DNA of 64,000 bases from Firmicutes bacterium UBA4882 (GTDB lineage Bacteria > Bacillota > UBA4882): assembly GCA_002399265.1 (NCBI GenBank), contig DHDG01000039.1:33847-97846 (forward strand). The letters run 5' to 3'. Positions 8,384-50,763 of the stretch are shown in pieces (positions within the stretch are counted from its first letter, which is position 1; every line of letters starts with the position of its first letter). The notes below the pieces were generated by a model. The model ran no database searches and was not told where the DNA came from. It saw only the letters and a list, made by a program, of their open reading frames with translations. The translations under genes were made by a program, and so were the position numbers.

Positions 8384-8450
8384 ACAGACCCCTCCTCTTG
8401 CAGAGTAAGCTATTGAAATATCTTAGTGGAATAGAATATTGCTATCTTAA

Positions 8451-8479
8451 TTGTATAATTGATTGGCCCTGTTTGTCAA
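8451..8479 (-). promoter_or_regulatory. Candidate sigma-A promoter for the sigma/anti-sigma operon (TTGACA-16/17-TATACA)
   Basis: The minus strand reads TTGACAaacagggccaatcaatTATACAat between the htrA stop and the sigma factor start. Confidence 0.4.
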
Positions 8480-8487
8480 AAGGATGG

Positions 8488-9711
8488 TCATTCCAGCGAA
8501 TCGGGCATTTCCGTTAATTGGATCTGTATTGTACTGCGCTTCCCGTTGCGCAGTAGTTCAAAGCGGCAACGCTCACCCGGTTCTTTCGCACGAATAGCAC
8601 CTTGAGCCTCCGAGGGAGTGTTAATTTCCTTTCCATCGATAGTGAGAATGATATCACCCGCTTCCAGGCCGGCTTTCTGCGCAGGACTGTTGGCGTAGAT
8701 TTCGTAGACTACCACGCCGCGGCCAGGCATCACATTCAGCTGTGCTGCCAAGTCTTTGTTCAACTCCGCCAAAGTTACGCCCAGCCAGGAGCGGGGAACA
8801 TATCCTTTAGTAATCATAATATCCAGCACTTCTTTAGCGGTATTGATCGGAACCGCAAACCCAATGCCTTGCGCAGACTGAATAATGGCGGTATTAATTC
8901 CGATAACCCGCCCATTCAGGTCCACTAATGGACCGCCGCTATTGCCAGGATTAATGGCGGCATCGGTCTGGATAAAACCGCCTTCTCCATCAAGCGAGCG
9001 CCCCAATCCGCTAATAATGCCAGCTGTGACGGTGTCTTTCAATCCGTATGGGTTCCCGATGGCCAGAACCCACTGTCCCGGTTCCAGAGTAGATGAGTCA
9101 CCCAGCTCTACTACAGGAAGGTTTTCGCCAGGGATTTTTAAAACGGCGAGGTCATTAACTTTATCTTTGCCGACTACCGTAGCTTGATATTTACGCCCAT
9201 CCGCCAGCGAGACTGTTACTTCGTCTGCACCACTGACGACGTGTTCGTTGGTTAGCACATAACCATCCTTGGAGATAACGAAACCAGAGCCCTTGCCGGT
9301 GGTTTCCTGCGGCGTTTGGGGCATCGGCATAAAGCCGAAAAAGAAGTTATTGAAATTGTTATTGCCACTGGAGCGAGTCACTGTATCAATGTTAACCACC
9401 GCAGCGGCTACCTTTTTCCTGGCCTGAACAATCGGCTCGTCTTTCCAGTTCTGTGGTAATGAAATCGGAGTTGAGGATTCGGAAGGCGAAACACCAACAT
9501 TTCGACTTTTGGCTGTCTCATCAGGTTCTAATACCGATCCGCCTTTGGCAGTTTCGGAAATCGAGTTTTTATCAGAAGGAATAACCCCGGCAACCGCCAA
9601 AGTAATTACACTAGTGAACACTGAAGCAAAAATGGCTACTATCAAGACGATAAGTAAAGGATCAAAGGATTTTCCGCGCCTAAAATTGCTTGTCACTTGG
9701 ATTACCTCCAC
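8488..9711 (-). CDS. HtrA/DegP-family trypsin-like serine protease with PDZ domain, membrane-anchored
   Basis: The catalytic triad context is present (TNEHVV; GNSGGPL), followed by a C-terminal PDZ-like region and an N-terminal TM helix. Confidence 0.85.
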   Translation of the reverse strand: MEVIQVTSNFRRGKSFDPLLIVLIVAIFASVFTSVITLAVAGVIPSDKNSISETAKGGSVLEPDETAKSRNVGVSPSESSTPISLPQNWKDEPIVQARKKVAAAVVNIDTVTRSSGNNNFNNFFFGFMPMPQTPQETTGKGSGFVISKDGYVLTNEHVVSGADEVTVSLADGRKYQATVVGKDKVNDLAVLKIPGENLPVVELGDSSTLEPGQWVLAIGNPYGLKDTVTAGIISGLGRSLDGEGGFIQTDAAINPGNSGGPLVDLNGRVIGINTAIIQSAQGIGFAVPINTAKEVLDIMITKGYVPRSWLGVTLAELNKDLAAQLNVMPGRGVVVYEIYANSPAQKAGLEAGDIILTIDGKEINTPSEAQGAIRAKEPGERCRFELLRNGKRSTIQIQLTEMPDSLE

Positions 9712-27406: not shown

Positions 27407-29221
27407 TCATTGGCCGCCTTTTAATTTAGCAATCATATCATCGATTTGCTTCTGGGACATGATCGGTTCTCCCTCATCTTTTGCCGGTCCTGCCATTATA
27501 GGAGCAGTTGTCTTGCCAGACGTGACTGGCAAAGGCGCCATCCCCATCCGGTTAGTTTGGAACGGCTGAACCTGCGACTGGCCCAAAGAAGGAGTCCTTA
27601 GACCAGGTTGACTTGTGGAAGGTTCCGGCATGGTTCGATTAACCGGCTGTGCGTTAAATGGCCGCGGTTGTGGCGGTTGTTGCTGCTGTGGTTGTTCCGG
27701 CAGGAACGGCTGTGCCGGCAACACGCTTCTTTGAAATTGAGCCATCGTGTCCGGATTGGAGGGCACCTGCCGAGCAAAAGGCTGCGACAGCGAGTTCGAG
27801 TTCGAGTTCAAGTTCGAATCAGCAGGTTTAGGATCATCACTATCGTTATTAGGGGCAAACTGCCTGAAAAGGTCGTCAATCGATTTCTGACTCATTGATA
27901 CTGCACTATAAGAACTTGGCTTAATACGATTCCCGGCCACATCTTTCATTGAATCGTTCATAGCGCGGCCTTCAGACGATGCTGCAACCTCTGGAACGGA
28001 ATAACCGGGCTTTTTAAGCAGCCTATCCGCTACATCTTGGGAAACATCGCCTTCTACAGCATAACTTTCGCTATATTTAATTTTTACCTTACCCTTATCA
28101 TTATAATCGGCGCTACCAGCACTGGGTTCGGAAACCAACTTTTCTGAAACACTCTCGACGTTTTTGGTAGCTTCATTTTCTCTCGGAAACACCCAGCCAT
28201 CCAATATGTTATTGGCAGGCTGTGCGTTGGCGGTTTGTGCACTGGTATTGCCAGAAATGAAGGGAGCACTATTTGCTTTGACGTCCAGAGAAAAGAGCGA
28301 ATCGCTCTGCTCTTGTTCCGGTACGGCGCTTCCGTTTGACAAATCTCCGCCGACCGAAAGGTCAAAATGAAGCTCTTCAGTTTGCGGAGCAGATTGCGCG
28401 TTCATTTCGAAACCCGGCACCGAACTTGCACCAACCTCCGCTGGTATTGCTGCTTCCTTAAAGAAAACAGGAGCTTGCTCAGCTGCCGGCGTTGATGGCA
28501 TCACCGGTGTCGGTGCAACTGGCATCGCTGAGGCCACGAATTCGTCGAAAGCAGGCGCAGGATCTGATTCTACTACTGGTGACGAAGGAGCAGCTTTGAC
28601 AATTTCCACCCAAGGCTTAGGCTGCGGCGCAGAAGGCCTTTCGCTGACTACTTCAGCCACTGGAGATACTGCAGGTTTTACCATTGGGGCCGCTGCAGGT
28701 TGTACCACTGGCGGTGGAGCTGGCGCTGCTGCGGGTTGTGCTGGCCTTTCGCTTTTGTAATAATGTGACTCTGAGGCGGATTCCTCCGGAAAGAAAAAGG
28801 AATAAAGCGCTTCTGCTGAAGGCGTGGGAATAAATTCATCTTCAGGCAAAAGGATTTCCCATGAAGCTTTAATTAAAACGCCTTCATTAAAGGCTGTCAC
28901 TGCATCACCATCGGAAGTTTGACGGCAGGAATGCACTCTCAATACCGAACCGGTATCCTTACGCACGAGCGTACAAGGTAGCACAAAGCATCTGGATAGC
29001 AGCAGCAGGTTGTTGCCTTCTTTAATAGCCCAAATATCCGACTCCAGAGTTTTCTGCAGCGTTGTTCTTGGATCGGAGGTGCGCGGATCGATTGGTAATT
29101 GTTTCTTTACTTCAGCGGGAATTTGAAACAGGATGCGCATGAATCCGTTCCAGCTGGCTTCTGTAAATTGCAGAGAGACTTCTTGTTCAATGCTAAATTC
29201 TCGTCCATGAAGTTGTTGCAT
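27407..29221 (-). CDS. Hypothetical protein: ~170-aa N-terminal globular domain followed by a ~430-aa Pro/Ala/Gln/Ser/Asn-rich disordered region
   Basis: The ATG (MQQLHG...) lies 1 nt after the gene C stop, with GGGGGG inside the gene C 3' end. The low-complexity region is extreme (PAQPAAAPAPPPVVQPAAAP..., NSNSNS, QPQQQQPPQPRP). No TM segment. The track ORF starts 14 codons earlier. Confidence 0.6.
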   Translation of the reverse strand: MQQLHGREFSIEQEVSLQFTEASWNGFMRILFQIPAEVKKQLPIDPRTSDPRTTLQKTLESDIWAIKEGNNLLLLSRCFVLPCTLVRKDTGSVLRVHSCRQTSDGDAVTAFNEGVLIKASWEILLPEDEFIPTPSAEALYSFFFPEESASESHYYKSERPAQPAAAPAPPPVVQPAAAPMVKPAVSPVAEVVSERPSAPQPKPWVEIVKAAPSSPVVESDPAPAFDEFVASAMPVAPTPVMPSTPAAEQAPVFFKEAAIPAEVGASSVPGFEMNAQSAPQTEELHFDLSVGGDLSNGSAVPEQEQSDSLFSLDVKANSAPFISGNTSAQTANAQPANNILDGWVFPRENEATKNVESVSEKLVSEPSAGSADYNDKGKVKIKYSESYAVEGDVSQDVADRLLKKPGYSVPEVAASSEGRAMNDSMKDVAGNRIKPSSYSAVSMSQKSIDDLFRQFAPNNDSDDPKPADSNLNSNSNSLSQPFARQVPSNPDTMAQFQRSVLPAQPFLPEQPQQQQPPQPRPFNAQPVNRTMPEPSTSQPGLRTPSLGQSQVQPFQTNRMGMAPLPVTSGKTTAPIMAGPAKDEGEPIMSQKQIDDMIAKLKGGQ

Positions 29222-29222
29222 C

Positions 29223-30581
29223 TTAATTCCCCCCGCCAGGATTGATAAGAGGGTTAATATCACTCATAACCCAGAACTTTTGCAGACCGGGAGCCAGAAA
29301 CTCCCACCACCCGGAATCCTTGACGCCACTTCGATAACGATGTCGAACTGCAACCGCTGGAATATCATGACTCAATACCGAAAGCTTGCCGACATTCAAA
29401 TCTGATTCAGTGTAGATATTTGTTCCGGCCTTCAAATAGTCAAAAGCGATCTGATCCTGCTTTATCCAGCCATCTAGTTGTGAATTCTGTACGTAAAGCC
29501 ACGGTTCCTGCAAGGAGTCATAATCTCTTTCGAGAATATCCAGTTTTTCACCGGATTGAAAGCGACCCTGAGGATCCCCTCCGCCAACTCTCGGGAAAAC
29601 ATTGACAACGCCTTTGGCATAACCGCGGATTGTTGTAACCGAAAACTCCTCACTGATAGGCAGTCGCAACGTTTTTGCTATCTCAGGAGCAGTCTCCCCC
29701 ACCCAATACTTGGCGATATACCAGGCTTGCTGAAAATACATCGGTTTGAACTGGTAGGCCCCGAAAAAAACTCCACCAATAATCATCAGGACCAGAGCTA
29801 CCTTAGCCAACTTTGACGAAGATCTGCTTCTGGATCTGGATATAGACTTTGATTTGGCACGGCGTTCAAATCGTCTTTGGGCTGGCCGCGGCTCCGTTCG
29901 TGGACCGGTGCTGCACTCAAAAGCAGTTACGTGAAAACGCTCTAACTCAATTGAATCCAAGACTTTCGGAAACTTGCCGAAATAGGCGTCTAAATCGGAC
30001 GGTTTCAAGATCCTGTATGGAAAAGGCAAGAAATTATATTGCTTGTCTTGCGGAAAATCATGCAAAATTATGATGCTCGGTATAACATTGAGGGTTGCTT
30101 TTTTTACGCGTGCCTGTGTCCATTGGCAGACAGCGAGGATTGTTTCCTGCAACTCTGTTTTGGAATCAGCAAGATTCTGACCCTCTAAATCAGCCCTGTC
30201 AAATATAACGAAGATACCTGCAGAACCTGACGCAATAAGGGCCGGATCCCTTTTTTGGATAGACCAGTCATCCGGCATTTGTATCAGTTTCCCGGCTGCC
30301 TGAATTTTGGCTTGATGTTCAAATACCCACTGGGCATCCTGATCATTTTTCGAAAACAAAGCGATCATGAAAAGAGCAACTACAGCTAACAGAAATAAAA
30401 GCCCGCCCGCCATTGCGAATCTGAAATCAACAAACCCGCCAATGGCCAGGATTACCATAGCTGTTGTTATAACCAGCCCGCCGATTGAGATCAGCAACAG
30501 GAAATTGAAAATGCGGTTTTTCGGAGAAAAACCCTTAGCGGGTGAAACATCCGCTATAATGCTCGTCAATAACCCGGCCAA
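29223..30581 (-). CDS. Membrane protein with 3 TM helices: cytoplasmic NERD-like segment between TM2 and TM3, basic Ser/Arg-rich linker, extracytoplasmic LysM-like + SH3b-like C-terminal region
   Basis: The start is TTG after AGGTGG, 6 nt upstream. The motif GSAGIFVIFDRADLEG...W resembles the NERD core GIFVIEVK...W. The C-terminal GEKLDILERDYD...WLYVQNSQLDGWIKQDQIAF is SH3b-like. The segment GETAPEIAKTLRLPISE is LysM-like. Confidence 0.55.
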   Translation of the reverse strand: MAGLLTSIIADVSPAKGFSPKNRIFNFLLLISIGGLVITTAMVILAIGGFVDFRFAMAGGLLFLLAVVALFMIALFSKNDQDAQWVFEHQAKIQAAGKLIQMPDDWSIQKRDPALIASGSAGIFVIFDRADLEGQNLADSKTELQETILAVCQWTQARVKKATLNVIPSIIILHDFPQDKQYNFLPFPYRILKPSDLDAYFGKFPKVLDSIELERFHVTAFECSTGPRTEPRPAQRRFERRAKSKSISRSRSRSSSKLAKVALVLMIIGGVFFGAYQFKPMYFQQAWYIAKYWVGETAPEIAKTLRLPISEEFSVTTIRGYAKGVVNVFPRVGGGDPQGRFQSGEKLDILERDYDSLQEPWLYVQNSQLDGWIKQDQIAFDYLKAGTNIYTESDLNVGKLSVLSHDIPAVAVRHRYRSGVKDSGWWEFLAPGLQKFWVMSDINPLINPGGGN

Positions 30582-41145: not shown

Positions 41146-42009
41146 TTATCTTTTATCCAACTCTTTTGCCATCGCGATTGCGGCAATCTGCCCCTGACCA
41201 ACTGCTCTGGCAATTTGCCATGGTCTTCCGGTGCAATCGCCAGCCGCATAAACTCCAGGAATATTGGTCTCCATATTTTCATCAATAATGATCTTTTCAT
41301 TGACAATCTGCAATCCGTCGATCAGTTTTAAAGGCGGGATGCCTGGTCGCTCAATGAAAATCCCTTGAACAGACAGACTTTGATCGCCAATTTCGATCGC
41401 CGCGACCGTCTCTTGGCCGGTAATGCTCTTCGGCACTCCGGATAAAATGGTGACATTTTCCGCAATGCTTTGAGGCAGCGGCCGGTATTGCGGTATATAA
41501 TAAACTCGCCTGCAAATACCAGCCAAAAAGCGCGCTTCTGTTTCAGCTTCCGGTAAATAGGCAATCATAGCTACGTCTTTGCCCCTAAAAAAGGCACCAT
41601 CGCAAGTGGCACAATAGCTGACACCCTTACCTTCAAATTCATTTTCTCCTGGAATGCTTTTATTTTCCATTACTCCTACGGCCAATAATAGTTTTCTGGC
41701 CTGATACTGCTCCTCACGCCCCATCACCCAGAAAACATCGCCGTCTTTGACAATCTGCTGCGCCTCATCGCGTTTGAATTCAGTTCCCATGGCGCTGGCA
41801 TGCTCATATAAAGCTTTGCCTAGCTCTGTGCCTGTAATGTCGGCAATTCCAGGATAATTGGCAACTTTAGGCGCGGCCTGCAGTTTATGGCTAATCTGCT
41901 CTTTTGCCAGCACCAAGACTTGTTTGTTTCTCTTGCGGGCATTAATCGCGGCCGAAAGCCCCGCCGGACCTCCACCGATAATCAAAATCGGCCAGACAAA
42001 TGTACTCAA
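41146..42009 (-). CDS. Thioredoxin-disulfide reductase family flavoprotein (TrxB-like)
   Basis: The FAD motif IIGGGPAG, the redox-active CATCDG and a second dinucleotide motif are present. The likely start is the TTG at 42009, preceded by GGGAGGT 9 nt upstream. The track ATG at 42027 has no SD. Confidence 0.75.
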   Translation of the reverse strand: MSTFVWPILIIGGGPAGLSAAINARKRNKQVLVLAKEQISHKLQAAPKVANYPGIADITGTELGKALYEHASAMGTEFKRDEAQQIVKDGDVFWVMGREEQYQARKLLLAVGVMENKSIPGENEFEGKGVSYCATCDGAFFRGKDVAMIAYLPEAETEARFLAGICRRVYYIPQYRPLPQSIAENVTILSGVPKSITGQETVAAIEIGDQSLSVQGIFIERPGIPPLKLIDGLQIVNEKIIIDENMETNIPGVYAAGDCTGRPWQIARAVGQGQIAAIAMAKELDKR

Positions 42010-42035
42010 TGGACTGATACCTCCCACATTGTCTG

Positions 42036-42278
42036 CTAAAAGTAGGATGTTCTCACTGTCACCCCGCCTATTTGAGTCAACTCCTGTTCCAGATTTTTGA
42101 TCTCTTCCGTATCAGCTTCCAGACTTAATGTAATTAACCCGTTATTCCCGTTTTCCTGGGAAACGCCCGTGCGACAGCGGATGATTGTGCCATGCTCGGT
42201 CAGAACCTCCTGGAGTTGTGGTGCGTTTTGGCACCGATTGTCAACTAACAGACCCATAACAGCCATTTTTTTGCTCAT
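42036..42278 (-). CDS. Small ACT-like regulatory protein, TM1266 family (putative iron-only hydrogenase system regulator-like)
   Basis: About 80 aa with the MAVMGLLVDNR...GLITLSLEADTEEIKNLEQ pattern. The ATG at 42278 is preceded by AAAGGA. Confidence 0.45.
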   Translation of the reverse strand: MSKKMAVMGLLVDNRCQNAPQLQEVLTEHGTIIRCRTGVSQENGNNGLITLSLEADTEEIKNLEQELTQIGGVTVRTSYF

Positions 42279-42457
42279 AATATGCATCCTTTCTCTGCCC
42301 TTTTTCATTAATGACACTGTTTACTGTAACCCGAATACCAAGATTTCTATTCGACCACCTGCGCAGGGTTTAATAGCTGAGATTTCCGATTGTGCCAGTA
42401 AAATAGTATAATCACGCGGACCTTTATCGACCAAAATACTAGCGAGGAGGTGATCTA

Positions 42458-42814
42458 ATGGGCAGTGGGCAAAAATCTAATACTCCTGTTGTTCAGCAGG
42501 CATATAAAGCCCTGGATCAATTCAAATATGAAGTTGCCAATGAGCTTGGCATTGATCAAAACCAGATCTACGGCGGCTACTGGGGCAACCTAACTTCTCG
42601 CGACTGCGGAGCAGTCGGGGGACATATGGTACGCCGCATGATTGAAGCTGCTGAACGTTCCCTGGCCGAACAGACTATGGCAGGCGTAAAAACCGGCTTC
42701 CAGTCGGCTTTCAACGCTAGCAGCAATCTGAACGTCAATCCGAACAATATTACCGGTACGAAACCCAGTTTCACCCAGTCTCCGTCCAGTGAGGGACCCA
42801 CTCGTTACGTATAA
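42458..42814 (+). CDS. Small acid-soluble spore protein, alpha/beta type, with ~45-aa Q/N/S-rich C-terminal extension
   Basis: The SASP signatures KALDQFKYEVANELGI and GGHMVRRMIEAAE are present. A strong RBS AGGAGGTGAT is present. Confidence 0.85.
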   Translation: MGSGQKSNTPVVQQAYKALDQFKYEVANELGIDQNQIYGGYWGNLTSRDCGAVGGHMVRRMIEAAERSLAEQTMAGVKTGFQSAFNASSNLNVNPNNITGTKPSFTQSPSSEGPTRYV

Positions 42815-42870
42815 TAGTTCCTGTATAAGCAAATAAGCAAATTCCCAAATAACACATGGAGGTGTAATTC

Positions 42871-43203
42871 ATGGGTAGTGGACAGAGAAGCAATGCTCCC
42901 GTAGTCCAGCAGGCGTACAAAGCCCTGGATCAGTTTAAATACGAAATCGCCAATGAGCTCGGCATTGATCAGAATCAAATCTATGGCGGTTACTGGGGTA
43001 ACCTGACCTCCCGTGACTGCGGAGCAGTCGGAGGTCATATGGTACGGCGCATGATCGAAGCTGCTGAACAATCATTGGCTCAGCAGGCCCTGGCTGGTAT
43101 GAAAACCGGATTCCAGACCGGCTTTAATGCGGCGGGAAGCAACCCGAACCAGAGTGTGAAAATCGGCACCACACCAAACCAAGGTCCGAATACCTATCAG
43201 TAA
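42871..43203 (+). CDS. Small acid-soluble spore protein, alpha/beta type (second tandem copy), extended C-terminus
   Basis: The conserved core is the same. RBS GGAGGTG is present. Confidence 0.85.
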   Translation: MGSGQRSNAPVVQQAYKALDQFKYEIANELGIDQNQIYGGYWGNLTSRDCGAVGGHMVRRMIEAAEQSLAQQALAGMKTGFQTGFNAAGSNPNQSVKIGTTPNQGPNTYQ

Positions 43204-43272
43204 ACTCAACTGTAAACACAATAGCAAACGCAACAATAAACTTAATACCGAACGTTACTTAGGCGGCTAAGA

Positions 43273-43305
43273 ACAAAAAGCGGGGCTGCCAATGGCGGCC
43301 TCGCT
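43273..43305 (-). terminator. Terminator-like hairpin after the SLH-domain gene
   Basis: An imperfect GC-rich stem is followed by UUUUUGUUC on the minus strand. Confidence 0.4.
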
Positions 43306-43320
43306 TATGCTACGCAGCAG

Positions 43321-44058
43321 TTACGGGAACAGCACTCCCAAGACGCCAGCGGCAACGGCTAATACGATCGCGATAATGCTCCAGACACGAGCGTCTTTTT
43401 GCGCTTTTTCGGCATCTGCCTTGGCAGTTTCCAATTCGGAATTCAGCTGCGCTATTTCAGCGTCGTGTTTTTCATCCGCCGCTGCGGAATCCTCTGTAAG
43501 TGCGGCCACAGAATTCTCAAGAGCGGAAAGATCCGTTTCCATGCCTGTCAATTTTTGTTCTGCTTCGGTAACCCTGTTTTTGAGGGCGATGATTTCCTGC
43601 AAGGATTTGGCCATTTCATCCCGCACCTGACCGGTCTCTGTTTTCCAGGCTGCCATATCAGCACCCATCGCAGTGCGATCACGCTCGTATTGTGCGAGCG
43701 CTTCTTCCAGATTTTTTGTGCGCAAAGAAAGAGCTACTAGTTCTTGCCGAAATTCACCAGTTAGCCGGCGCATCAGATCAGCGTCTTCCTGATTCATGCT
43801 AATGGAACCCGCCACTGAGTCACCGAGCAGTCTTGAGACAACCACGGCCAACGTGAAACGATCGACCGGTTGGTTCCCCCTGAAAGTATTGTCAGCGTAT
43901 AATCCTAAGTACCCTTCTGAAACAAGCTTTTTCACGGCCTGGTACGCCCAATGGTTTGACTGGACATCCGCAATCTGCGGATCAGCCGCTGACGCGACAG
44001 CAGCTGTCGAAACTGCCAGGGTGAGTGCCAGTATGAGAGCGATCGACAAACGTTTCAT
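43321..44058 (-). CDS. SLH-domain protein with coiled-coil region and C-terminal TM anchor
   Basis: A signal peptide and an SLH motif (WAYQAVKKLVSEGYLGLYADNTFRGNQPVDRFTLAVVVSRLL) are present. The ATG at 44058 is preceded by AGGAGG. Confidence 0.7.
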   Translation of the reverse strand: MKRLSIALILALTLAVSTAAVASAADPQIADVQSNHWAYQAVKKLVSEGYLGLYADNTFRGNQPVDRFTLAVVVSRLLGDSVAGSISMNQEDADLMRRLTGEFRQELVALSLRTKNLEEALAQYERDRTAMGADMAAWKTETGQVRDEMAKSLQEIIALKNRVTEAEQKLTGMETDLSALENSVAALTEDSAAADEKHDAEIAQLNSELETAKADAEKAQKDARVWSIIAIVLAVAAGVLGVLFP

Positions 44059-44143
44059 GCCCGTACCTCCTGCCTTTTTATTCAATCTTATTTGGCATGC
44101 CGCCACTGACTGCTATGGCGCAATCAGCTTATGGCGCAACCTA

Positions 44144-46126
44144 CTATTGATCCTTATTCTCGCTGACTGCGGTGACTGGCACAGGTTTTCCAGACGGATC
44201 CAGCAAGCGCAGAACGGCACTCTGCATGGCCAGCGGACCGTTACCGCCGGACTTTCTCCTGACCCAAACCGTGGCAAAATTCTCAAACTGTTTGCCTGTC
44301 GCTGTGGAACGGGTAGCTTCCAGCAACACCGCGTTCCCTTCCATGACAGGCTCTCTCAGCCAAGATAAAACTTTGCCGTCTTGCACCATAAACCCGCCTC
44401 TTTGAACAGCCAGCAGTTCTGTATCCGAATCAAAAGTTACCCGCAGCGCGAGCTGGGACGCTTCTGGCAGATTGACCAGGTCAATATCCACTTGGTACCA
44501 TCCTGGCCGTTCCGTGACCGGTGCAGAAACGCTCCTTATCTGACGAGGTAAATCAGGCCATTGAATCGCATTGGACCCAGAAATTACCTTGTTTTCATTA
44601 CATCCCGTCAAGATCTTGAACCCGGTAGAACCTACCCCACCCGAAGAAACAACGGACCAGCGTACCAACACTTCAGTGCCGGGGGCAAGTTTGCCAATAT
44701 AGCGGCGTGACGACTCTCCAGGGGCCAGTTCAATGCCGTTACCCGGAGCCAGCTCAGCCCAGGTATCAGTTGCAACATCTCCGCCATCATTGGAGACAAT
44801 CGCCTGCACTGCCACAGGATACGGTTCATATCGTCCCGTGACTGATTTAACCATAGGCGGGTCCAAGACCGTCAATCCCAGTTTGGGAGGGGCAATCAGC
44901 TTGATTTTGCGTTCGACGATGACCGGGTCACTTTCAAAGGCGTGACCGCGAACATTAATGGTTGCTGTCCCGGAGCCTACCGCTGTGAAAGTCCAAGCGG
45001 CTTGACGCGTTTCGCCCGGCTTTAGTGACCCAATATCTACTTTAATGGGGTTCAAAAGCCGCAATGAATTGGGAACGTCAATAGTCAGTGATACGTCACG
45101 TGCTACACCTTCACCGCGGTTTTCCAGATAGGCTAATACAATGTACTGCTCGGTAGTTCCCGACTGAACAGACGCCGGCGCGGTGACACCCAGTGTCAAC
45201 TCGCCCTTAGAAATGGTGACGCCACCCAGGCCATAATATGTTACCCGTGACAGAGCGGCTCCGGGAGGTAAATCCGTTGCATCCCACATTAGAGCTACGG
45301 CACTATCATATTCAAATTCACCAACTCTGGTAAAGTCTCTGCCCGCAATCAAGACGGGGTTCCATGGCTGATCCGCAAAGGTGCCCCAGTTGGAAAAGAA
45401 AAGACGATCAGGGGTGGTCAGCTCACCGCCGGCAAGTGTCCCCTGGGCGATGACTTTGGGCTCTTCCAGAGAATCAAAAGCCTGCCAGTATGACTGGATA
45501 GTTGAGCCCTGCGCGCCATAATCCGTAAGGATCTGTTTCTCGCCCATACGGAACGGAGCACCGTCATTTTCCCCAAGCATGGCGTCAATGCAAACCCGCA
45601 AACCGACTGAATGGTAGACTTGTCCTCTGTTCACCATGGTATACGCAATTCTGGCGGTATCCGGCAACCCGGTAGTTGGCCCGTCAACAATCGAGATGTA
45701 TTGCGTTACTTCCAGATCACCATAGCGCCACGCCGTGACAATTGCCCCGTCGCGCACTTCCGGTTTTTGAATCATCAGGCCGGTGGCCAACCCCTCGCCG
45801 GCACGCTTTGATACCGGACCGCCAAACGCGAACAATAAGCCGTTCATATTAATCGTGGTATAAGAGGTCCAGGGAAGAGGGCGGCCATAAATCAAAGGCT
45901 GGTTATCGTCGTCATCACGTTCAGGATCTCCGCCTGTTACATCAACCGCAAAACGGCCGCGCCCATCCGCGGTATTATTGACAAAAACCTTGATATATTC
46001 GTTTTCAATTGTCACCAAGGACTGGTCTTCCGCAGAAACCAGCGCACCCAATAAAAAGGCGACCGCAATTACGGCTGTCCAAAGCAGGGTAAATGAAGTA
46101 TACTTCTTCGCGTGTCTCATTCTCAT
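44144..46126 (-). CDS. Large secreted protein (660 aa, signal peptide, beta-rich; no recognisable catalytic motif), translationally coupled to tonB
   Basis: The ATG overlaps the tonB TGA (ATGA). The N-terminus is signal-peptide-like (KKYTSFTLLWTAVIAVAFLLGALVSA). The protein does not look like a TonB-dependent receptor (no plug, no C-terminal aromatic residue). Confidence 0.6.
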   Translation of the reverse strand: MRMRHAKKYTSFTLLWTAVIAVAFLLGALVSAEDQSLVTIENEYIKVFVNNTADGRGRFAVDVTGGDPERDDDDNQPLIYGRPLPWTSYTTINMNGLLFAFGGPVSKRAGEGLATGLMIQKPEVRDGAIVTAWRYGDLEVTQYISIVDGPTTGLPDTARIAYTMVNRGQVYHSVGLRVCIDAMLGENDGAPFRMGEKQILTDYGAQGSTIQSYWQAFDSLEEPKVIAQGTLAGGELTTPDRLFFSNWGTFADQPWNPVLIAGRDFTRVGEFEYDSAVALMWDATDLPPGAALSRVTYYGLGGVTISKGELTLGVTAPASVQSGTTEQYIVLAYLENRGEGVARDVSLTIDVPNSLRLLNPIKVDIGSLKPGETRQAAWTFTAVGSGTATINVRGHAFESDPVIVERKIKLIAPPKLGLTVLDPPMVKSVTGRYEPYPVAVQAIVSNDGGDVATDTWAELAPGNGIELAPGESSRRYIGKLAPGTEVLVRWSVVSSGGVGSTGFKILTGCNENKVISGSNAIQWPDLPRQIRSVSAPVTERPGWYQVDIDLVNLPEASQLALRVTFDSDTELLAVQRGGFMVQDGKVLSWLREPVMEGNAVLLEATRSTATGKQFENFATVWVRRKSGGNGPLAMQSAVLRLLDPSGKPVPVTAVSENKDQ

Positions 46127-46869
46127 GGCTGCGCTTCGCTCCTTTCCCACTGCTCGCTGCCCTGAAAAACAACTTTGACTTCGCCGCTGCGGAAAATGAG
46201 GGCGATCTTTATTTTCACAGGGAATGCCGGACGCGTATATTGCCATGCCTCTTTCAGAGCACGCAGTGAATAGGAATCCAGCCTTTGATCACCGGAAGCT
46301 GATAGCAGTACCACCTGAATCTCACCTTCCGGAGTCAACCTGACCTCTGTCAATACTTCTCCTTCTGAGCCTTCGTTCTGAGCATTTTTAGGATAAGTCA
46401 CCGGTTGACTGAGAACAAAGCCTTCCCCACTGCCGAGTCCCAGTCCCTTGTTTCCGCCTTGCGATGCACCGTTATTGCCGGCGCCCGATCCAGGCGAGCC
46501 AGGCGATGAATCAGACGGCACCGGCGGCACTGTGGAGCTATCTTGGGGCAATGTTTTGATCGGTTCATTAGTCTTGGGCTGCTGGGCGGTTTTTATTGGC
46601 GGGGATTCCTTTGGAGGTGGTTCTTTTTGCTGCGGCCGTTGTTGCTGTTCTTGAGCAGCTTCATTGACATTAATCTGCACAGCAGCAGTTTGCTCGGCGC
46701 GGCCGTCAGAAATCGTTGGACCCAGTTCGACAAAGCCGACCTCCAAAACTTCCATGCCGTTGCCTGCGGAAAGTCCTCCGCCAGGTACTGACGCCAACAG
46801 CAATAAGACTACATGCAGGATCAGTGATATGGTCCAGGAAATACCTTTACGCCAACCTGCGCTCATCAA
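46123..46869 (-). CDS. tonB: TonB-like energy transducer (TM anchor, Pro-rich spacer, TonB C-terminal domain)
   Basis: The architecture and the C-terminal domain pattern fit TonB. The gene follows exbD with a 4-nt overlap. Confidence 0.7.
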   Translation of the reverse strand: MMSAGWRKGISWTISLILHVVLLLLASVPGGGLSAGNGMEVLEVGFVELGPTISDGRAEQTAAVQINVNEAAQEQQQRPQQKEPPPKESPPIKTAQQPKTNEPIKTLPQDSSTVPPVPSDSSPGSPGSGAGNNGASQGGNKGLGLGSGEGFVLSQPVTYPKNAQNEGSEGEVLTEVRLTPEGEIQVVLLSASGDQRLDSYSLRALKEAWQYTRPAFPVKIKIALIFRSGEVKVVFQGSEQWERSEAQP

Positions 46870-47294
46870 TCAATCACCCCGTCATCGGAGGGACCTTGAT
46901 CCACGCGGCGTACACCCAGCGCAGGTCTTTCTGCTCCTCCCTCCCTAATCAGGTCCAGAGCGGCCACCAGGTCTTCGTATGCCACTTTGCGATCCGGATA
47001 CAAGACTACTTGCATCTGCGGGTTATCGATCAATGATTGCGTAACCCGCGCGGAGACTTCCGCAGCAGGAATCCGCAGACCTTCGATGAAATATTGCCCC
47101 TCGGTATCAAGCGCCACAACCAATTGCTCAATCTCAGCGACCGGGGCAGTGCTTGAGTCTGGAAGAGAAACCGGAATGGAAGCTGCTCCATTATCAAAAG
47201 TACCATAGATCACGAAAAAGAAGACCAGCATTACCATTACATCGATCAGAGGTACAATGTCAACCCTGGCTTTACGCTTCCAGTATCGAGCCAT
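46866..47294 (-). CDS. exbD: Biopolymer transport protein ExbD/TolR
   Basis: The N-terminus IVPLIDVMVMLVFFF is typical, and the size matches. Confidence 0.85.
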   Translation of the reverse strand: MARYWKRKARVDIVPLIDVMVMLVFFFVIYGTFDNGAASIPVSLPDSSTAPVAEIEQLVVALDTEGQYFIEGLRIPAAEVSARVTQSLIDNPQMQVVLYPDRKVAYEDLVAALDLIREGGAERPALGVRRVDQGPSDDGVID

Positions 47295-47910
47295 GGTTAC
47301 CCCTCCGATCTTTTAACATTGCCGAGAAATCAATTGTCTCACGTTCCAGCATCTCGGCGACGGATTCAGCGCGATGCACAAAATAGTTCATGGCCACCAG
47401 TGTAGGAATCGCAATAATTAATCCTGATGCAGTAGTAATCAGCGCTTCAGCAATACCCAAGCCAACCGATTCCATCCTGGCCATCGCCGAGGCTGCGCCA
47501 AGCAAGCGGAAAGTATTGAGAATGCCAGTAACAGTACCCAACAGTCCCAGAAGGGGCGCTGCCGTTACGATTGTGTCCAGAATGGAGAGCCCCGAAAATA
47601 ACTTTTTTCTTTCCAGACTGGCGGCCGCTTGCATTTCAAGCTCAGCATTTTCAGGATTTGCCGCTGCCAGGCCATTTGATAAAACCCGCATTACTGGACC
47701 GTCCGAATCGTTAAACAGTAGAACCGCTTCATTGGTAGCACCGGCGGCAATCAGCTTCCGGGCTGCTCTGAGACGATCCGATAATCCATTTTCCGTTTTG
47801 CGCAGCCGGACAAAAAAGATGATCCTTTCTACTATCACCGCCAGAGCCGTGACAGAACACAGCAACAGAGGATACATAACGGGCCCGCCTTTGGAAATTA
47901 TTGTGAACAT
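47272..47910 (-). CDS. exbB: MotA/TolQ/ExbB proton-channel protein
   Basis: Three TM helices and the conserved C-terminal helix region are present. RBS AAGGAGGA lies 7 nt upstream. Confidence 0.85.
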   Translation of the reverse strand: MFTIISKGGPVMYPLLLCSVTALAVIVERIIFFVRLRKTENGLSDRLRAARKLIAAGATNEAVLLFNDSDGPVMRVLSNGLAAANPENAELEMQAAASLERKKLFSGLSILDTIVTAAPLLGLLGTVTGILNTFRLLGAASAMARMESVGLGIAEALITTASGLIIAIPTLVAMNYFVHRAESVAEMLERETIDFSAMLKDRRGNHGSILEA

Positions 47911-48075
47911 AGAAATTCCTCCTTACTGTTTTAGGGTCTTTTCACTGGCGCACACATCTAAAAAGCAATCCATTTCCTGAATCCTTTTCACAAACGCACT
48001 TCTTTTTATTTCTTTTCCAGGGACTCCTATTCCTGCCCAGAAAATATTTAAGAAGATATGCAAAAACTGGAAACA

Positions 48076-48110
48076 CCAAAAAGGCTATCCGATGCTGAAT
48101 AGCCTTTTTG
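48076..48110. terminator. Bidirectional rho-independent terminator between deoC and exbB
   Basis: The stem aaaaaggctat/atagccttttt has flanking A/T runs on both strands. Confidence 0.6.
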
Positions 48111-48155
48111 CACACATGCCTGGACGCGCTGCAGTGTGCAGCGCCATGTCCGAAA

Positions 48156-48839
48156 CTAATATGAACTCTGCCCAGCCGATCCAGTGACGACCGCGACACC
48201 GGCACTCAGACCGAGACGACTGGCACCGGCTTCCACCATTCGCAACGCCGTTTCGCGATCTCTGATTCCGCCGGAGGCCTTCACGCCAATCTCTGAACCC
48301 ACCATGGCCCGCATCAGCTTCACATCTTCAACGGTGGCACCACCGCGACTGAACCCAGTTGATGTCTTGACGAAATTGGCACCAGCTTCCACTGCGATTT
48401 TGCAGGCGGTTTTCTTCTCTTCATCAGTTAATAATGCGGTTTCAATAATCACCTTAACCAAACGTCCGCCGGACGCATCCACAACGGCGGCGATATCGCG
48501 GTGCACTTCCTGATAAAGCCCAGATTTCAGTGCGCCAATTCGTATCACCATATCAAGCTCATCGGCTCCCATGGCAGCTGCATCTCTAGCTTCGGCGGCT
48601 TTGGCAAAAGCAGACGTAGCCCCCAGGGGAAATCCAATAACAGTACAGACTTTGACCGGCGATCCAGCCAGTTCCTGCTTAGCCAGCGGTACAAAGACCG
48701 GATTCACGCAAACCGAACAGAACTGATATTCCCGTGCTTCCTGACAGAGCTTCCGGATGTCTGCAGGCGTAGCCTCCGGTTTTAAAAGAGTATGATCAAT
48801 TATGCCAGCCAGTTCTTTGTCAAAATAACTATTTGCCAT
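48156..48839 (-). CDS. deoC: Deoxyribose-phosphate aldolase
   Basis: Begins [24 protein letters not shown]. The Schiff-base lysine context is present. A strong internal RBS AAGGAGG lies 8 nt upstream of the ATG at 48839. Confidence 0.85.
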
Positions 48840-49445
48840 TGGCAGTTCCTCCTTTTTGCATCGCTGCATAATATTCAGTGCCAGTTGTACAGCAGGTCCG
48901 ACACCTGCAATGCCAATAATTGACCCGATTCCTACCGGACCCCCCAGGATATATCCCAGCACGGCTGCAAAGACGTCCAATAGTATCCGCACTAACCCAG
49001 GCTTAATTTTCAATTTTTCGCTGATCCCGACCATAGCGAGTTCAATGGGACCCTCGCCGAGATTACCGCTGATATAGATTGCTGAGCCAAAGCCGATCGC
49101 AAAAACCGCAATCACGATAAAAAGGATTTGCAGATGAATGATACCGCCAACCTCAGGTAATATTCCCAGCAGACAGTCCAGTATCAGGCCTACCAAAAAA
49201 AAGTTGGCCAGTGTGGCAAGCCCCGGCTTTCTCTTCAGAATCAGCAAACAAAAGACAATCAACAGAAGACCAACAATTTGAGAGGCTCTCCCGGGAGTAA
49301 TCCCTGCCGCCTTAGACAGTCCCAGAGTCAGGATTGTCCAAGGATCAACTCCCAATTCCGCCCTGACATATAACGCGATGCCAAATCCAATTAGAGCAAT
49401 ACCGACTAAAACGGTTAGCCCGCGCCAAAAGCAATTTTTTAGCAG
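48156..49445 (-). CDS. YczE-like (4-5 TM) membrane domain read through in-frame into deoC with no intervening stop; possible natural fusion or lost stop
   Basis: The track ORF is continuous from the membrane domain into DeoC. The only plausible start downstream of the purD stop is a CTG (49445) after AAAGGAG, which makes the start uncertain. Confidence 0.4.
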
Positions 49446-49461
49446 TTGAGGAGACTCCTTT

Positions 49462-50763
49462 CTAACGGGCAATATCTTTGCGATAGACCATGCCGTCGAA
49501 ATGAACGTGTGCGAGGCCTTGATACGCCAAGTCAGCCGCCTGCGCCACGCCAGCGTCGGATTGCGCCACCACATTCAGAACTCTTCCGCCAGCGGTTACC
49601 AGACCATCAGGACTGTCGGCCGTGCCAGCGTGAAAGATCTGACACCCCAATGCTTCCGCTTCCGACAGGCCTGTGATAATTTTACCGCTTCGATACTTTC
49701 CCGGATAACCTTGGGACGCCGCAACCACACATACAGATGATCTATTTTCCCATTGCAGCGCTTTTCCTGCAAGCTTTTTCATGACAGCCGCCCATAAAAT
49801 TTCCGCCAGATCCGTCTGCAGCAGAGGCAGCAAGGCTTGTGTTTCTGGATCACCAAAACGAGCATTAAATTCGACAACTTTAGGTCCATCTCCTGTCAGC
49901 ATTAACCCGGCATAGAGCAGACCTGTGAACGGCCGTCCCATTTCCGCCAAGGTTTTCAGAACTGGATCAATAATTGAGTTCTTCACCAACTCTGCCAAAT
50001 TGTCCGGCGCATCAGCAACTGGGGCAAACGCGCCCATCCCTCCGGTATTGGCACCGGTATTCCCTTCGCCAATTGCTTTATGATCACGTGCCGGAATCAT
50101 GATTACCGAATCAGTGCCACTGCAGACTGCAAAAACAGAAGCTTCTTTGCCTGCCATAAACTCTTCAATTAAGACACAGTTATCCCCGGAAGATTGTGCC
50201 TTGGACGATTGCAGCCCGCCAGGATGCTCTTCGCAACATTGTGGCAAGAATTCGCAGATGGTCTCCTCAGCTTCGCTTAGGCTATGACAGATCCGCACCC
50301 CTTTTCCGGCAGCCAAGTTGTTCATCTTAAGCACTACAGGAAAATTGGCCGAAGAAAGGGAGCGCAAACCCGTTTTTCTATCGTGAACCTCCTGATAAGT
50401 GGCAGTCGGCACTTTCGCCTTGCGCATTACCTGCTTGGCGAAGACTTTACTGGTCTCGATTTCAGCGGCGGCTGCGGATGGACCAAAGGCAGGAATACCA
50501 GCTCTGGTGAGCATGTCAGACAGACCGGCCGCCAAATATATTTCCGGACCGATTACAACTAAATCGGGCCGTGCATTGACAGCCCAATCATAGATCGCGC
50601 CGGCACTCAAGTCACCAGGCCGAACATTTTCGGCGTATCTGGCTGTCCCGGGATTGCCCGGTGCGCAATATAGCTTTTTTACCAATGGACTGCGGGATAA
50701 CTTCCAACAGAGAGCATCCTCTCTGGCTCCGCTTCCGACAATTAGAATTTTCATTGTGCTCAT
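49462..50763 (-). CDS. purD: Phosphoribosylamine-glycine ligase
   Basis: The ATP-grasp motifs are present, with full-length PurD similarity. Confidence 0.9.

What the first reader, a model, noticed from the sequence alone, without database searches (positions are those of the whole stretch)
43321..47910. exbB-exbD-tonB operon translationally coupled to a 660-aa secreted protein and followed by an SLH-domain protein, with no TonB-dependent receptor
The operon order on the minus strand is exbB, exbD, tonB. A large signal-peptide-bearing beta-rich protein follows, whose ATG overlaps the tonB TGA (ATGA). An SLH-domain, coiled-coil, TM-anchored protein follows that. SLH domains tether the outer membrane to peptidoglycan in diderm Firmicutes. 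The 660-aa protein has none of the hallmarks of a TonB-dependent transporter (no TonB box or plug, no terminal aromatic residue). This suggests a TonB-energised function other than classical siderophore uptake, for example a surface or secretion-linked process, or a new partner type.
Basis: partly seen in the sequence, partly recalled or inferred. Interest (0 to 1): 0.6.

Follow-up and report, generated by a model that had tools for sequence, protein, structure and literature searches.

The report
TonB-type motor operon without a receptor
This operon joins a proton-driven ExbB-ExbD-TonB motor to a secreted sugar-binding-like protein and a cell-wall-anchoring coiled-coil protein instead of the usual outer-membrane transporter. 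The same five genes recur in dozens of uncultured and cultured lineages, so it looks like an undescribed envelope machine.

Summary
On the minus strand, exbB, exbD, a tonB-like gene, a 660-aa secreted protein ("X", ATGA overlap with tonB) and an SLH/coiled-coil/C-terminal-helix gene form one unit. It has a sigma-H-type promoter and lies between two terminator hairpins.

X is not a TonB-dependent transporter. A confident AlphaFold model (pLDDT 90) shows a signal peptide, a galactose-mutarotase-like supersandwich, two Ig-like domains and a cohesin domain.

The fifth protein resembles the SLH-plus-stalk part of OmpM/SlpA, but a single hydrophobic helix replaces the barrel, as in Thermotoga Omp-alpha.

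The block is strongly conserved. Of 64 distinct loci, 48/48 with enough flank carry exbB, exbD and a tonB-like gene upstream, and 57/61 carry the SLH gene downstream. Hosts include cultured Halanaerobiales (among them Halothermothrix orenii, reported in 2009 to have a Ton system without receptors), Limnochordia-type genomes, unnamed Bacillota, and a low-GC marine lineage with LPS-transport genes.

My best reading, which is inference, is a Tol-Pal-like, proton-motive-force-driven system that acts on an envelope tether. I found no paper describing it.

Verdict: a new variant of a known kind; interest about 0.7.

The parts
48072..48106 (-). Terminator hairpin of the upstream deoC-fusion gene. It marks the upstream boundary of the unit.
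   Evidence: A 14-bp stem, -19.3 kcal/mol, z = -4.8, followed by a U-run. It is conserved in the 80%-identical relative L001.
48007..48036 (-). Sigma-H-type promoter: -35 GCAGGAATA, a 12-nt spacer, then -10 AAAGAAATA.
   Evidence: It matches RNAGGAWWW / RNNGAATWW (consensus as quoted in PMC8510167). It is conserved in L001. The same bipartite motif lies upstream of exbB in 15-30 of 56 unique loci, against at most 1.2 expected. It also lies upstream of spoIIAA in L010, which serves as a positive control.
47272..47910 (-). exbB/tolQ-like proton-channel subunit, 212 aa.
   Evidence: PF01618 at 104.8 bits. It scores 100.9 bits on the TolQ model and 64.5 on the ExbB model, both below their cut-offs. 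In the PDB, TolQ 8vlw scores 57.7 bits and ExbB 5sv0 scores 49.8.
46866..47294 (-). exbD/tolR-like subunit, 142 aa, with a conserved Asp in the transmembrane segment (PLIDVM).
   Evidence: PF02472 at 86.1 bits.
46123..46866 (-). TonB/TolA-like transducer. It has an N-terminal transmembrane helix with an SxxxH motif (SLILH), a Pro/Gln/Lys-rich linker, and a C-terminal TonB domain with a YP motif.
   Evidence: TonB_C at 38.7 bits, above the cut-off of 24.6, and TIGR01352 at 28.9 bits, above 27.1. PDB TonB C-terminal domains 5lw8, 6sly and 1xx3 match.
44144..46126 (-). X, a 660-aa secreted protein. Residues 1-32 are the signal peptide (VSA|ED). Residues 37-306 (46018-45209) form a mutarotase-like supersandwich. 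Residues 310-411 (45199-44894) and 416-523 (44881-44558) are Ig-like domains. Residues 529-657 (44542-44156) form a cohesin domain.
43321..44058 (-). Tether-like protein, 245 aa. It has a signal peptide, an SLH domain (about residues 30-68, 43971-43855), a coiled coil, and a C-terminal hydrophobic helix (residues 225-245, 43386-43324) with no tail after it.
   Evidence: SLH at 32.6 bits. It matches SlpA 7zgx at 1e-14 over residues 5-204, and OmpM 8bys at 7e-12. The same architecture is seen in 43/46 homologues.
43274..43304 (-). Terminator-like hairpin with a U-run. It marks the downstream boundary.
   Evidence: -18.2 kcal/mol, z = -4.4, with 0 of 200 shuffles folding as well.

Best explanation
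This is a self-contained five-gene envelope module.

Shown by sequence and model:
- An ExbB/ExbD (TolQ/TolR-like) proton-channel motor.
- A TonB/TolA-like transducer anchored in the cytoplasmic membrane.
- A Sec-exported soluble protein, X, made of a carbohydrate-binding-type supersandwich, two Ig-like domains and a cohesin domain.
- An OmpM/SlpA-type SLH domain and coiled-coil stalk that ends in one hydrophobic helix instead of a beta-barrel.

Inferred:
- The motor uses the proton-motive force to pull, through the TonB-like C-terminal domain, on X rather than on a TonB-dependent transporter.
- X in turn engages the SLH/coiled-coil tether or the wall polymer that the tether binds.
- Attachment between peptidoglycan and a membrane can therefore be loaded, released or relocated on demand.

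In that sense it would work like Tol-Pal: TolQ-TolR-TolA-TolB-Pal has the same gene order and the same logic. The periplasmic parts are not homologous, however, and the hosts tether the envelope through SLH domains and are reported to lack Tol-Pal. In Firmicute hosts the operon appears to be read from a sigma-H-type promoter, which would place its expression at the transition to stationary phase or sporulation.

My confidence that this is a dedicated, transporter-independent Ton/Tol-like module is about 0.85. My confidence that its job is Tol-Pal-like control of an envelope tether is about 0.35-0.4.
For: Anatomy:
- Genes overlap or are tightly spaced, and junctions are similarly tight across loci.

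X is not a barrel:
- The AF2 model has pLDDT 90.4.
- Foldseek finds no full-length analogue.

Conservation:
- 48/48 loci have ExbB and ExbD upstream.
- TonB is detected in 41/48 by tblastn. The other 7 carry a TonB-like ORF with an S..H transmembrane helix, a Pro-rich linker and a YPK C-terminal domain.
- 57/61 have the SLH gene downstream.
- The three characterised exceptions (L068, L069, L088) keep a signal peptide, coiled coil and C-terminal helix but lack SLH. The fourth, L078, has only about 0.8 kb of downstream flank and was not examined.

Hosts:
- All named Halanaerobiales genera sampled carry X.
- H. orenii has the full block, and its genome paper found no TonB-dependent receptor (PMC2626281).
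- Limnochordia-type loci carry it.
- A 30%-GC marine lineage carries it next to lptF/G and lnt.

Tol-like features:
- Gene order matches Tol-Pal.
- The tonB-like gene always sits with its motor. PMC12204202 says this is typical of tolA and not of tonB.
- ExbB and ExbD score higher on the TolQ and TolR models.
- Tol-Pal is reported only in Gracilicutes, and Ton systems with transporters only in Negativicutes among Firmicutes.

Length matching:
- TonB-like length correlates with tether length (Spearman 0.48, p = 5e-4, n = 49), consistent with both spanning the same gap.

Promoter:
-.
Against: - No interaction has been tested.
- X is not homologous to TolB and the fifth protein is not homologous to Pal.
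- Tether lengths range from about 160 to 1939 aa, which is hard to reconcile with a simple perpendicular spacer.
- Which membrane holds the C-terminal helix is unknown. After Sec export a stop-transfer helix would normally stay in the inner membrane, yet basic residues precede the helix and the tail after it is about 1 aa.
- The length correlation is not corrected for phylogeny, and a few ORF calls in it are wrong.
- Whether the window's own organism is a diderm was not established. Its nearest named MutS relatives are only 53-54% identical.
- Distant relatives of the X N-domain occur in clearly extracellular proteins with RHS repeats or dockerin-like ends. That would also fit a surface-binding role.
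- The sigma-H assignment rests on motif matches only.
Confidence: 0.4

Rival explanations
1. Nutrient or glycan acquisition. X is a substrate-binding receptor that uses its supersandwich and Ig-like domains to bind a polysaccharide. TonB-driven force releases or passes the substrate through an unlinked outer-membrane channel such as OmpM. The SLH protein only positions the complex.
For: - The supersandwich fold is typical of carbohydrate-active enzymes and sugar-binding modules.
- Many Asp, Asn, Arg and Trp residues in the N-domain are invariant, which suggests a ligand site.
- TonB systems classically import nutrients.
- Relatives of the N-domain occur in extracellular proteins.
Against: - No transporter, ABC importer or glycoside hydrolase is conserved next to the block. 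Flanking genes differ between lineages.
- The module sits in conserved housekeeping neighbourhoods in every lineage examined, which is unlike niche-specific uptake loci.
- There is no Fur box.
- The strictly conserved partner is a wall-binding coiled-coil protein.
Confidence: 0.2
2. A sporulation or germination device of diderm spore-formers. The helix-anchored SLH tether is inserted into the mother-cell membrane that becomes the outer spore membrane and later the outer membrane. The motor and X remodel wall-membrane attachment during engulfment or outgrowth.
For: - A sigma-H-type promoter is conserved upstream of exbB in about half of the unique loci, and the same motif lies upstream of spoIIAA.
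- Sporulation genes are neighbours in three lineages: two SASP genes in the window; dacF-spoIIAA-AB-sigF upstream and spoVAC/D/E downstream in Limnochordia-type loci; spoVS-spmA-spmB upstream and a SleB-like hydrolase downstream in H. orenii and Natroniella.
- A helical anchor can be inserted without the BAM machinery, which fits a membrane derived from an inner membrane (context: PMC13018214).
Against: - The same module occurs in a marine lineage with no sporulation genes in view and no sigma-H motif.
- Many loci lie next to pur, miaB or mutS genes instead.
- Sigma-H also controls non-sporulation genes (from my own knowledge).
- Gene adjacency to sporulation genes is common in spore-former genomes.
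Confidence: 0.15
3. Surface display. X (cohesin plus Ig-like domains) and the SLH protein are cellulosome-like or S-layer-type surface-anchoring components. The motor genes are co-transcribed but serve assembly or export, or are functionally unrelated.
For: - Database names such as 'cellulosome anchor protein' and 'cohesin domain-containing protein'.
- SLH and cohesin together are the classic anchoring-scaffoldin combination (from my own knowledge).
Against: - Here cohesin and SLH are on two different proteins.
- No dockerin partner or glycoside hydrolase is linked.
- The hosts include LPS-bearing diderms, where a protein with only a Sec signal would stay in the periplasm.
- 48/48 linkage to exbB-exbD-tonB, with overlapping stop and start codons, argues for one machine.
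Confidence: 0.08

Closest known systems
Ton system (ExbB-ExbD-TonB with TonB-dependent transporters, e.g. E. coli FhuA/BtuB)
   Same: - The motor families are the same (PF01618, PF02472).
- The TonB-like protein has an SxxxH transmembrane helix, a Pro-rich linker, and a TonB_C domain with the YP motif.
   Different: - The conserved partner is a soluble supersandwich/Ig/cohesin protein with no plug and no barrel.
- The tonB-like gene is always fused into one operon with its motor and two periplasmic partners.
- H. orenii, which carries the module, was reported to have no receptors.
Tol-Pal system (tolQ-tolR-tolA-tolB-pal)
   Same: - The five-gene order and logic match: motor, motor, transducer, periplasmic beta-rich protein, peptidoglycan-binding membrane-anchored protein.
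- ExbB and ExbD score best on the TolQ and TolR models.
- The transducer is encoded with its motor.
   Different: - X has no beta-propeller.
- The fifth protein binds the wall through an SLH domain rather than an OmpA-like domain, and is anchored by a helix rather than a lipid.
- The NCBIfam TolQ and TolR equivalog cut-offs are missed by a wide margin.
- Tol-Pal is reported only in Gracilicutes.
OmpM / SlpA outer-membrane tethers of diderm Terrabacteria
   Same: The N-terminal SLH domain and coiled-coil stalk are sequence-similar to D. radiodurans SlpA (1e-14, residues 5-204) and V. parvula OmpM (7e-12).
   Different: There is no C-terminal beta-barrel. A single hydrophobic helix of about 20 aa ends the protein.
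Thermotoga Omp-alpha (OmpA1)
   Same: Same architecture: SLH domain, long coiled coil, and about 20 hydrophobic C-terminal residues thought to anchor it in the toga (PMC3387000; PMC10160955).
   Different: - Omp-alpha is encoded next to a porin-like Omp-beta, not next to a motor.
- Sequence orthology was not tested.
- The stalk here varies from about 70 to about 1800 residues.
Other TolQR/ExbBD-type motors with non-transporter outputs (Myxococcus Agl-Glt gliding, Bacteroidetes GldLM/PorLM). This comparison is from my own knowledge.
   Same: A proton-driven 5:2-type stator is coupled to a periplasm-spanning partner that does mechanical work other than import.
   Different: The partner proteins are different. 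No motility or secretion genes are conserved next to this module.

Membership tests
Ton system | ExbB (MotA/TolQ/ExbB family) and ExbD proteins with a transmembrane Asp | tested here: met
   PF01618 at 104.8 bits and PF02472 at 86.1 bits. The PLIDVM Asp is present.
Ton system | TonB: N-terminal SxxxH anchor, Pro-rich linker, TonB C-terminal domain | tested here: met
   TonB_C at 38.7 bits, above 24.6, and TIGR01352 at 28.9 bits, above 27.1. SLILH and YPK motifs are present. PDB TonB C-terminal domains match.
Ton system | The cognate partner is a TonB-dependent transporter (TonB box, plug, 22-strand barrel) | tested here: not met
   X is a supersandwich, two Ig-like domains and a cohesin (pLDDT 90.4). 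The window contains no TonB-dependent transporter among the ORFs of at least 150 aa that were scanned against Pfam. Absence from the whole genome could not be tested here. The literature reports none in H. orenii.
Tol-Pal | TolQ, TolR and TolA orthologues (NCBIfam equivalogs) | tested here: not met
   TolQ scores 100.9 bits against a cut-off of 221. TolR scores 53.8 against 127.3. tolA_full scores 24.8 against 59.45. These are the best-scoring models but fall well below their cut-offs.
Tol-Pal | TolB beta-propeller protein and Pal (OmpA-like lipoprotein) | tested here: not met
   X has no propeller. The fifth protein has an SLH domain, no lipobox and no OmpA domain.
Tol-Pal | Operon logic: motor, motor, transducer, periplasmic protein, wall-binding anchor | tested here: met
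   The gene order is conserved in 48/48 and 57/61 loci. This is an analogy, not homology.
OmpM/SlpA superfamily | N-terminal SLH domain followed by a coiled-coil stalk | tested here: met
   SLH at 32.6 bits. SlpA 7zgx at 1e-14 and OmpM 8bys at 7e-12.
OmpM/SlpA superfamily | C-terminal outer-membrane beta-barrel | tested here: not met
   The protein ends in one helix of about 20 aa. 43/46 homologues do the same.
Thermotoga Omp-alpha type | SLH domain, long coiled coil and hydrophobic C-terminus | tested here: met
   compared with the description in PMC3387000.
Thermotoga Omp-alpha type | Sequence orthology to TM0477 and location in the outer sheath | not tested
Localisation needs an experiment.
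Cohesin (scaffoldin) modules | Cohesin fold | tested here: met
Cohesin (scaffoldin) modules | A dockerin-bearing partner | not tested
   No dockerin gene lies in the conserved block. A genome-wide search was not possible.
Sigma-H regulon (Firmicutes) | Promoter matching -35 RNAGGAWWW and -10 RNNGAATWW | tested here: met
   In the window, GCAGGAATA, 12 nt, AAAGAAATA, with one mismatch. The motif is enriched 15-30 of 56 loci against at most 1.2 expected. Actual dependence on sigma-H cannot be tested with these tools.

The most novel reading that the evidence does not exclude
This module is the missing functional counterpart of Tol-Pal in bacteria that tether their outer membrane through SLH domains (diderm Terrabacteria). 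It would be an ancient proton-driven machine in which a TonB/TolA-like arm pulls on a cohesin-bearing periplasmic protein to load, release or relocate a helix-anchored, OmpM-like wall tether. Because the tether needs no BAM machinery, it could also hold the wall to a membrane of inner-membrane origin during sporulation, linking the module to the inner-to-outer membrane conversion of diderm spore-formers.
Probability: 0.25. Interest if true: 0.85.

Novelty: new variant of a known kind. Interest (0 to 1): 0.72.

Why it matters
Tol-Pal is reported only in Gracilicutes. Among Firmicutes, transporter-linked Ton systems are reported only in Negativicutes (PMC12204202). How the other SLH-tethered diderms couple inner-membrane energy to their outer envelope is therefore open. 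The receptor-less Ton genes of Halothermothrix orenii have been an unexplained remark since 2009 (PMC2626281).

This work shows that those genes belong to a strictly conserved five-gene module with two dedicated, previously unnoticed partners. One partner is an OmpM-like tether that earlier surveys would have missed, because they defined OmpM as an SLH domain plus a beta-barrel. The module is present in cultured, sequenced species: H. orenii, Halanaerobium praevalens, Orenia marismortui and Natroniella. The question is therefore directly testable by genetics, fractionation and cryo-tomography.

Tried and rejected
- **TonB-X fusion structure.** I submitted a linker fusion of the TonB C-terminal domain and the X N-domain to look for an interface.
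- **AlphaFold-database fold search.** I wanted it to get organism names, but the library was not available.
- **Genome scan.** An alignment query would have been better.
- **Names for distant family members.** The look-ups were almost all unnamed. The only taxon label obtained for a non-Firmicute-type member was a doubtful 'Actinobacteria bacterium'.
- **Fur box.** The 7-1-7 pattern with up to 3 mismatches gave 5 hits in the window, none near exbB and no more than chance. Iron regulation is not supported.
- **RNA families.** Rfam found nothing in 42000-49000.
- **Other promoters.** There is no sigma-70 consensus upstream of exbB. Sigma-F, -G, -E, -K and -A regexes gave 0 hits upstream of exbB across loci.
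- **Natural TonB-X fusion.** P0296 (983 aa) looked like a candidate, but its N-terminal extension is an acidic low-complexity region, not TonB.
- **My own ORF caller.** It mis-called antisense ORFs, so the conservation counts rest on tblastn instead.
- **Fortuitous adjacency.** Rejected on the 48/48 and 57/61 linkage.
- **X as a divergent TonB-dependent transporter.** Rejected on the confident all-beta multidomain model, which has no barrel.

Full report
**What is in the window**

Five co-directional genes lie on the minus strand between 47910 and 43321.

- exbB, 47910-47272: 212 aa, PF01618 at 104.8 bits.
- exbD, 47294-46866: 142 aa, PF02472 at 86.1 bits. It overlaps exbB by 23 nt.
- A tonB-like gene, ATG at 46866 (or TTG at 46869) to 46123. 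TonB_C scores 38.7 bits against a cut-off of 24.6, and TIGR01352 scores 28.9 against 27.1.
- A 660-aa ORF, X, whose ATG at 46126 overlaps the tonB TGA as ATGA.
- After an 85-nt gap with an AGGAGG site, a 245-aa SLH protein, 44058-43321. SLH scores 32.6 bits against a cut-off of 20.8.

The motor proteins carry the expected functional residues. ExbD has the transmembrane Asp in PLIDVM. The TonB-like protein has an SxxxH (SLILH) anchor, a Pro/Gln/Lys-rich linker and a YPK-type C-terminal domain.

Stable hairpins followed by U-runs bracket the unit. One lies at 48106-48072, after the upstream deoC-fusion gene (z = -4.8). The other lies at 43304-43274, after the SLH gene (z = -4.4).

**What the 660-aa protein is**

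Pfam and NCBIfam give nothing above threshold. The protein nevertheless belongs to a large family of proteins of very uniform length. There were 299 hits with X as the query and 594 with its Natroniella homologue P0095.

Homologues have ordinary cleavable signal peptides with AxA-type sites and no lipobox. An AlphaFold model built on 41 homologues is confident, with mean pLDDT 90.4:

- signal helix, residues 4-28;
- an all-beta domain, residues 37-306;
- two Ig-like domains, residues 310-411 and 416-523;
- a C-terminal domain, residues 529-657.

The N-domain has many invariant Asp, Asn, Arg and Trp residues. It defines a family of about 2,160 representatives at 50% identity, 377 of them at E ≤ 1e-30. 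A few distant members are extracellular proteins with RHS repeats or dockerin-like ends.

**What the fifth protein is**

In the loci read by eye and in 43 of 46 surveyed homologues, it has a signal peptide, an SLH domain (DVPxDHWAY...GYL...FQG...PVDRYTLA), a coiled coil, and one C-terminal hydrophobic helix. About one residue follows the helix, and basic residues lie just before it. Total protein length ranges from about 160 to 1939 aa.

By sequence, its SLH-plus-stalk part matches D. radiodurans SlpA (7zgx, 1e-14, residues 5-204) and V. parvula OmpM (8bys, 7e-12). It is therefore an OmpM/SlpA-type tether in which a helix replaces the barrel. That is the architecture described for Thermotoga Omp-alpha/OmpA1: an SLH domain, a 316-aa coiled coil and about 20 hydrophobic C-terminal residues (PMC3387000; PMC10160955).

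Three high-GC loci carry a shorter version with a signal peptide, coiled coil and helix but no SLH domain.

**Is the block conserved?**

A genome scan, exact-protein look-ups and a metagenome scan gave 97 loci. The 91 in hand at the time of counting fall into 64 groups at no more than 90% DNA identity.

- All 48 groups with at least 2.5 kb of upstream flank have exbB and exbD directly upstream on the same strand.
- 41 of these have a tblastn-detectable TonB. The other 7 have a 311-411-aa ORF in the same slot with an S..H anchor, a Pro/Glu-rich linker and a YPK-type C-terminal domain.
- 57 of 61 groups have the SLH gene directly downstream.

Gene junctions are short or overlapping throughout. 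Outside the five genes, the neighbourhood differs between lineages. Fortuitous adjacency is excluded.

**Who has it**

Named carriers are as follows.

- Cultured Halanaerobiales: Natroniella, Orenia marismortui, Halanaerobaculum, Halanaerocella, Halonatronum, Halanaerobacter, Fuchsiella, Sporohalobacter, Selenihalanaerobacter, Halanaerobium saccharolyticum, H. praevalens and H. congolense, and Halothermothrix orenii.
- MAGs labelled Limnochordia.

No named hit is a Negativicute. Only about a quarter of hits carry names, so this is suggestive only.

The complete H. orenii genome has the full block: spoVS-spmA-spmB-PHP-exbB-exbD-tonB-X-SLH-sleB-like. This is the ExbB/ExbD/TonB set that the 2009 genome paper noted as having no detectable outer-membrane receptor (PMC2626281).

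The window's own organism is an uncultured Bacillota lineage. Its MutS is only 53-54% identical to any named species, and I could not establish whether it has an outer membrane.

Unexpectedly, the same five genes occur in a marine lineage of about 30% GC, from Tara Oceans and other samples. There the order is the Na+-NQR operon, rlmN, a LOG-like gene, exbB, exbD, tonB (172-179 aa, TonB_C at 60.8 bits), X (629-652 aa) and an SLH/coiled-coil/helix protein (160-162 aa, SLH just above the Pfam cut-off). In L095 and L096 this is followed by holB, rpsU, lptF/G, an LptD_N-like protein and lnt. L097 shares the block through holB and then diverges. The module is therefore not confined to Firmicutes, and it sits among outer-membrane biogenesis genes in that lineage.

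**Regulation**

I found no Fur box, no Rfam element and no sigma-70 consensus upstream of exbB.

Aligning the upstream region with the 80%-identical relative exposed a conserved bipartite motif. Across 56 unique loci, AGGAWW-N12-14-..GAA lies upstream of exbB in 27-30 loci, against at most 1.2 expected from shuffles or random windows. The strict form occurs in 15 loci against 0.14 expected. The motif is strand-specific, with 0-2 matches on the reverse complement, and lies 33-130 nt from the start codon in nearly all cases.

It matches the sigma-H consensus, -35 RNAGGAWWW and -10 RNNGAATWW (quoted in PMC8510167). The 11-12 nt spacing is from my own memory. In the window the site is GCAGGAATA (48036-48028), a 12-nt spacer, then AAAGAAATA (48015-48007).

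The same motif lies just upstream of spoIIAA, a classical sigma-H target, in locus L010. It is absent from the marine and high-GC loci.

**How it most likely works**

Shown: the parts list, their export signals and their strict co-inheritance.

Inferred: the ExbB/ExbD channel converts proton flow into movement of the TonB-like protein. The C-terminal domain of that protein binds X, possibly through the unusually conserved first beta-strand of mature X or through an Ig-like domain. X, through its cohesin or its sugar-binding-type domain, engages the SLH tether or the wall polymer the tether binds.

This is the logic of Tol-Pal. The gene order is the same. The transducer is encoded with its motor, as tolA is and tonB usually is not (PMC12204202). 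ExbB and ExbD score higher on the TolQ and TolR models than on the ExbB and ExbD models, although all scores are far below the cut-offs. The hosts are lineages for which Tol-Pal and transporter-linked Ton systems are reported absent.

The lengths of the TonB-like protein and of the tether co-vary (Spearman 0.48, p = 5e-4, n = 49). This is not corrected for phylogeny, and a few ORF calls are wrong. It fits two proteins that span the same compartment.

Weak points are these. No contact has been tested. Stalks of up to 1,900 residues cannot be simple perpendicular spacers. It is not known which membrane holds the C-terminal helix.

**Rivals**

- A glycan or nutrient uptake role for X is plausible from the fold. 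It lacks any conserved transporter or enzyme neighbour.
- A sporulation or germination role is supported by the sigma-H motif and by sporulation-gene neighbours in three lineages. The marine lineage has the module without them.
- A cellulosome-like surface-display reading follows the database names. It does not explain the invariant linkage to a motor.

**Comparison and novelty**

The motor and transducer are members of the ExbB/ExbD/TonB families. The system fails the defining Ton feature, a transporter partner. It also fails the defining Tol-Pal features, a TolB propeller and a Pal lipoprotein. The fifth protein passes the SLH-plus-stalk test of OmpM/SlpA but fails the barrel test.

Full-text searches found no description of this module. 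The key papers on diderm Firmicutes that I checked do not mention TonB, ExbB or Tol genes in this context.

I file it as a new variant of a known kind: a Ton/Tol-type motor with a new, conserved output module.

Noticed in passing
L095 7449-11451; L096 7438-11393; L097 8429-12428: The same five-gene module occurs in a marine lineage of about 30% GC. It lies next to the Na+-NQR operon and, in L095 and L096, next to lptF/G, an LptD_N-like protein and lnt. One member is labelled 'Actinobacteria bacterium' at NCBI, which looks wrong given LptFG and a sigma-54 activator. The true phylum was not determined.
   Followed up: partly
L094 4821-5633; L008 7168-7995; L011 6293-7111 (and about 20 other loci): A PHP-domain protein of about 270 aa lies directly upstream of exbB in Halanaerobiales. 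It also lies upstream, separated by a GNAT acetyltransferase, in Limnochordia-type loci. It may be a sixth, lineage-restricted member of the module. It is absent from the window.
   Followed up: partly
window 42458-42814 and 42871-43203 (+): Two tandem alpha/beta-type SASP genes (PF00269 in the public gene calls) encode unusually long proteins of 118 and 110 aa with C-terminal extensions. They lie immediately downstream of the operon on the opposite strand, and they show the host is a spore-former.
   Followed up: no
window 25583-27346, 27407-29263, 29223-30581 (-): Three consecutive large ORFs (587, 618 and 452 aa) have no Pfam hit at E ≤ 0.05, apart from a faint SH3_3 hit in the third. This is an uncharacterised gene trio.
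   Followed up: partly
window 48156-49574 (-): A deoxyribose-phosphate aldolase (DeoC) domain is fused to an N-terminal YitT/DUF6198-type multi-pass membrane domain (472 aa). This is an unusual fusion, and public callers place its start differently (438 or 399 aa).
   Followed up: no
window 7210-9711 (-): An ECF-type sigma factor (7793-8383) and a zf-HC2 anti-sigma factor (7210-7806) lie next to an HtrA-like protease with a PDZ domain (8488-9711). This is a likely envelope-stress unit. A SipL/SPOCS-like ORF lies at 6011-6505.
   Followed up: no
L068 10001-10390; L088 9908-10432; L069 about 6174-7151: In three high-GC loci the fifth gene lacks the SLH domain but keeps the signal peptide, coiled coil and C-terminal helix (129-174 aa in L068 and L088; the L069 ORF was not cleanly delimited). 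The coiled coil and helix therefore look like the conserved core of that protein.
   Followed up: partly
P0365, P0375: Distant relatives of the X N-domain plus Ig-like cassette are fused to RHS/YD repeats (1088 aa) or to a dockerin-like C-terminus (1183 aa). The N-domain is therefore an unnamed, widespread extracellular module (about 2,160 representatives) with no Pfam family.
   Followed up: partly
L006 12133-17952: In one Limnochordia genome the tether homologue is 1939 aa long, nearly all coiled coil. That would be about 270 nm if fully extended, far longer than any periplasm.
   Followed up: no
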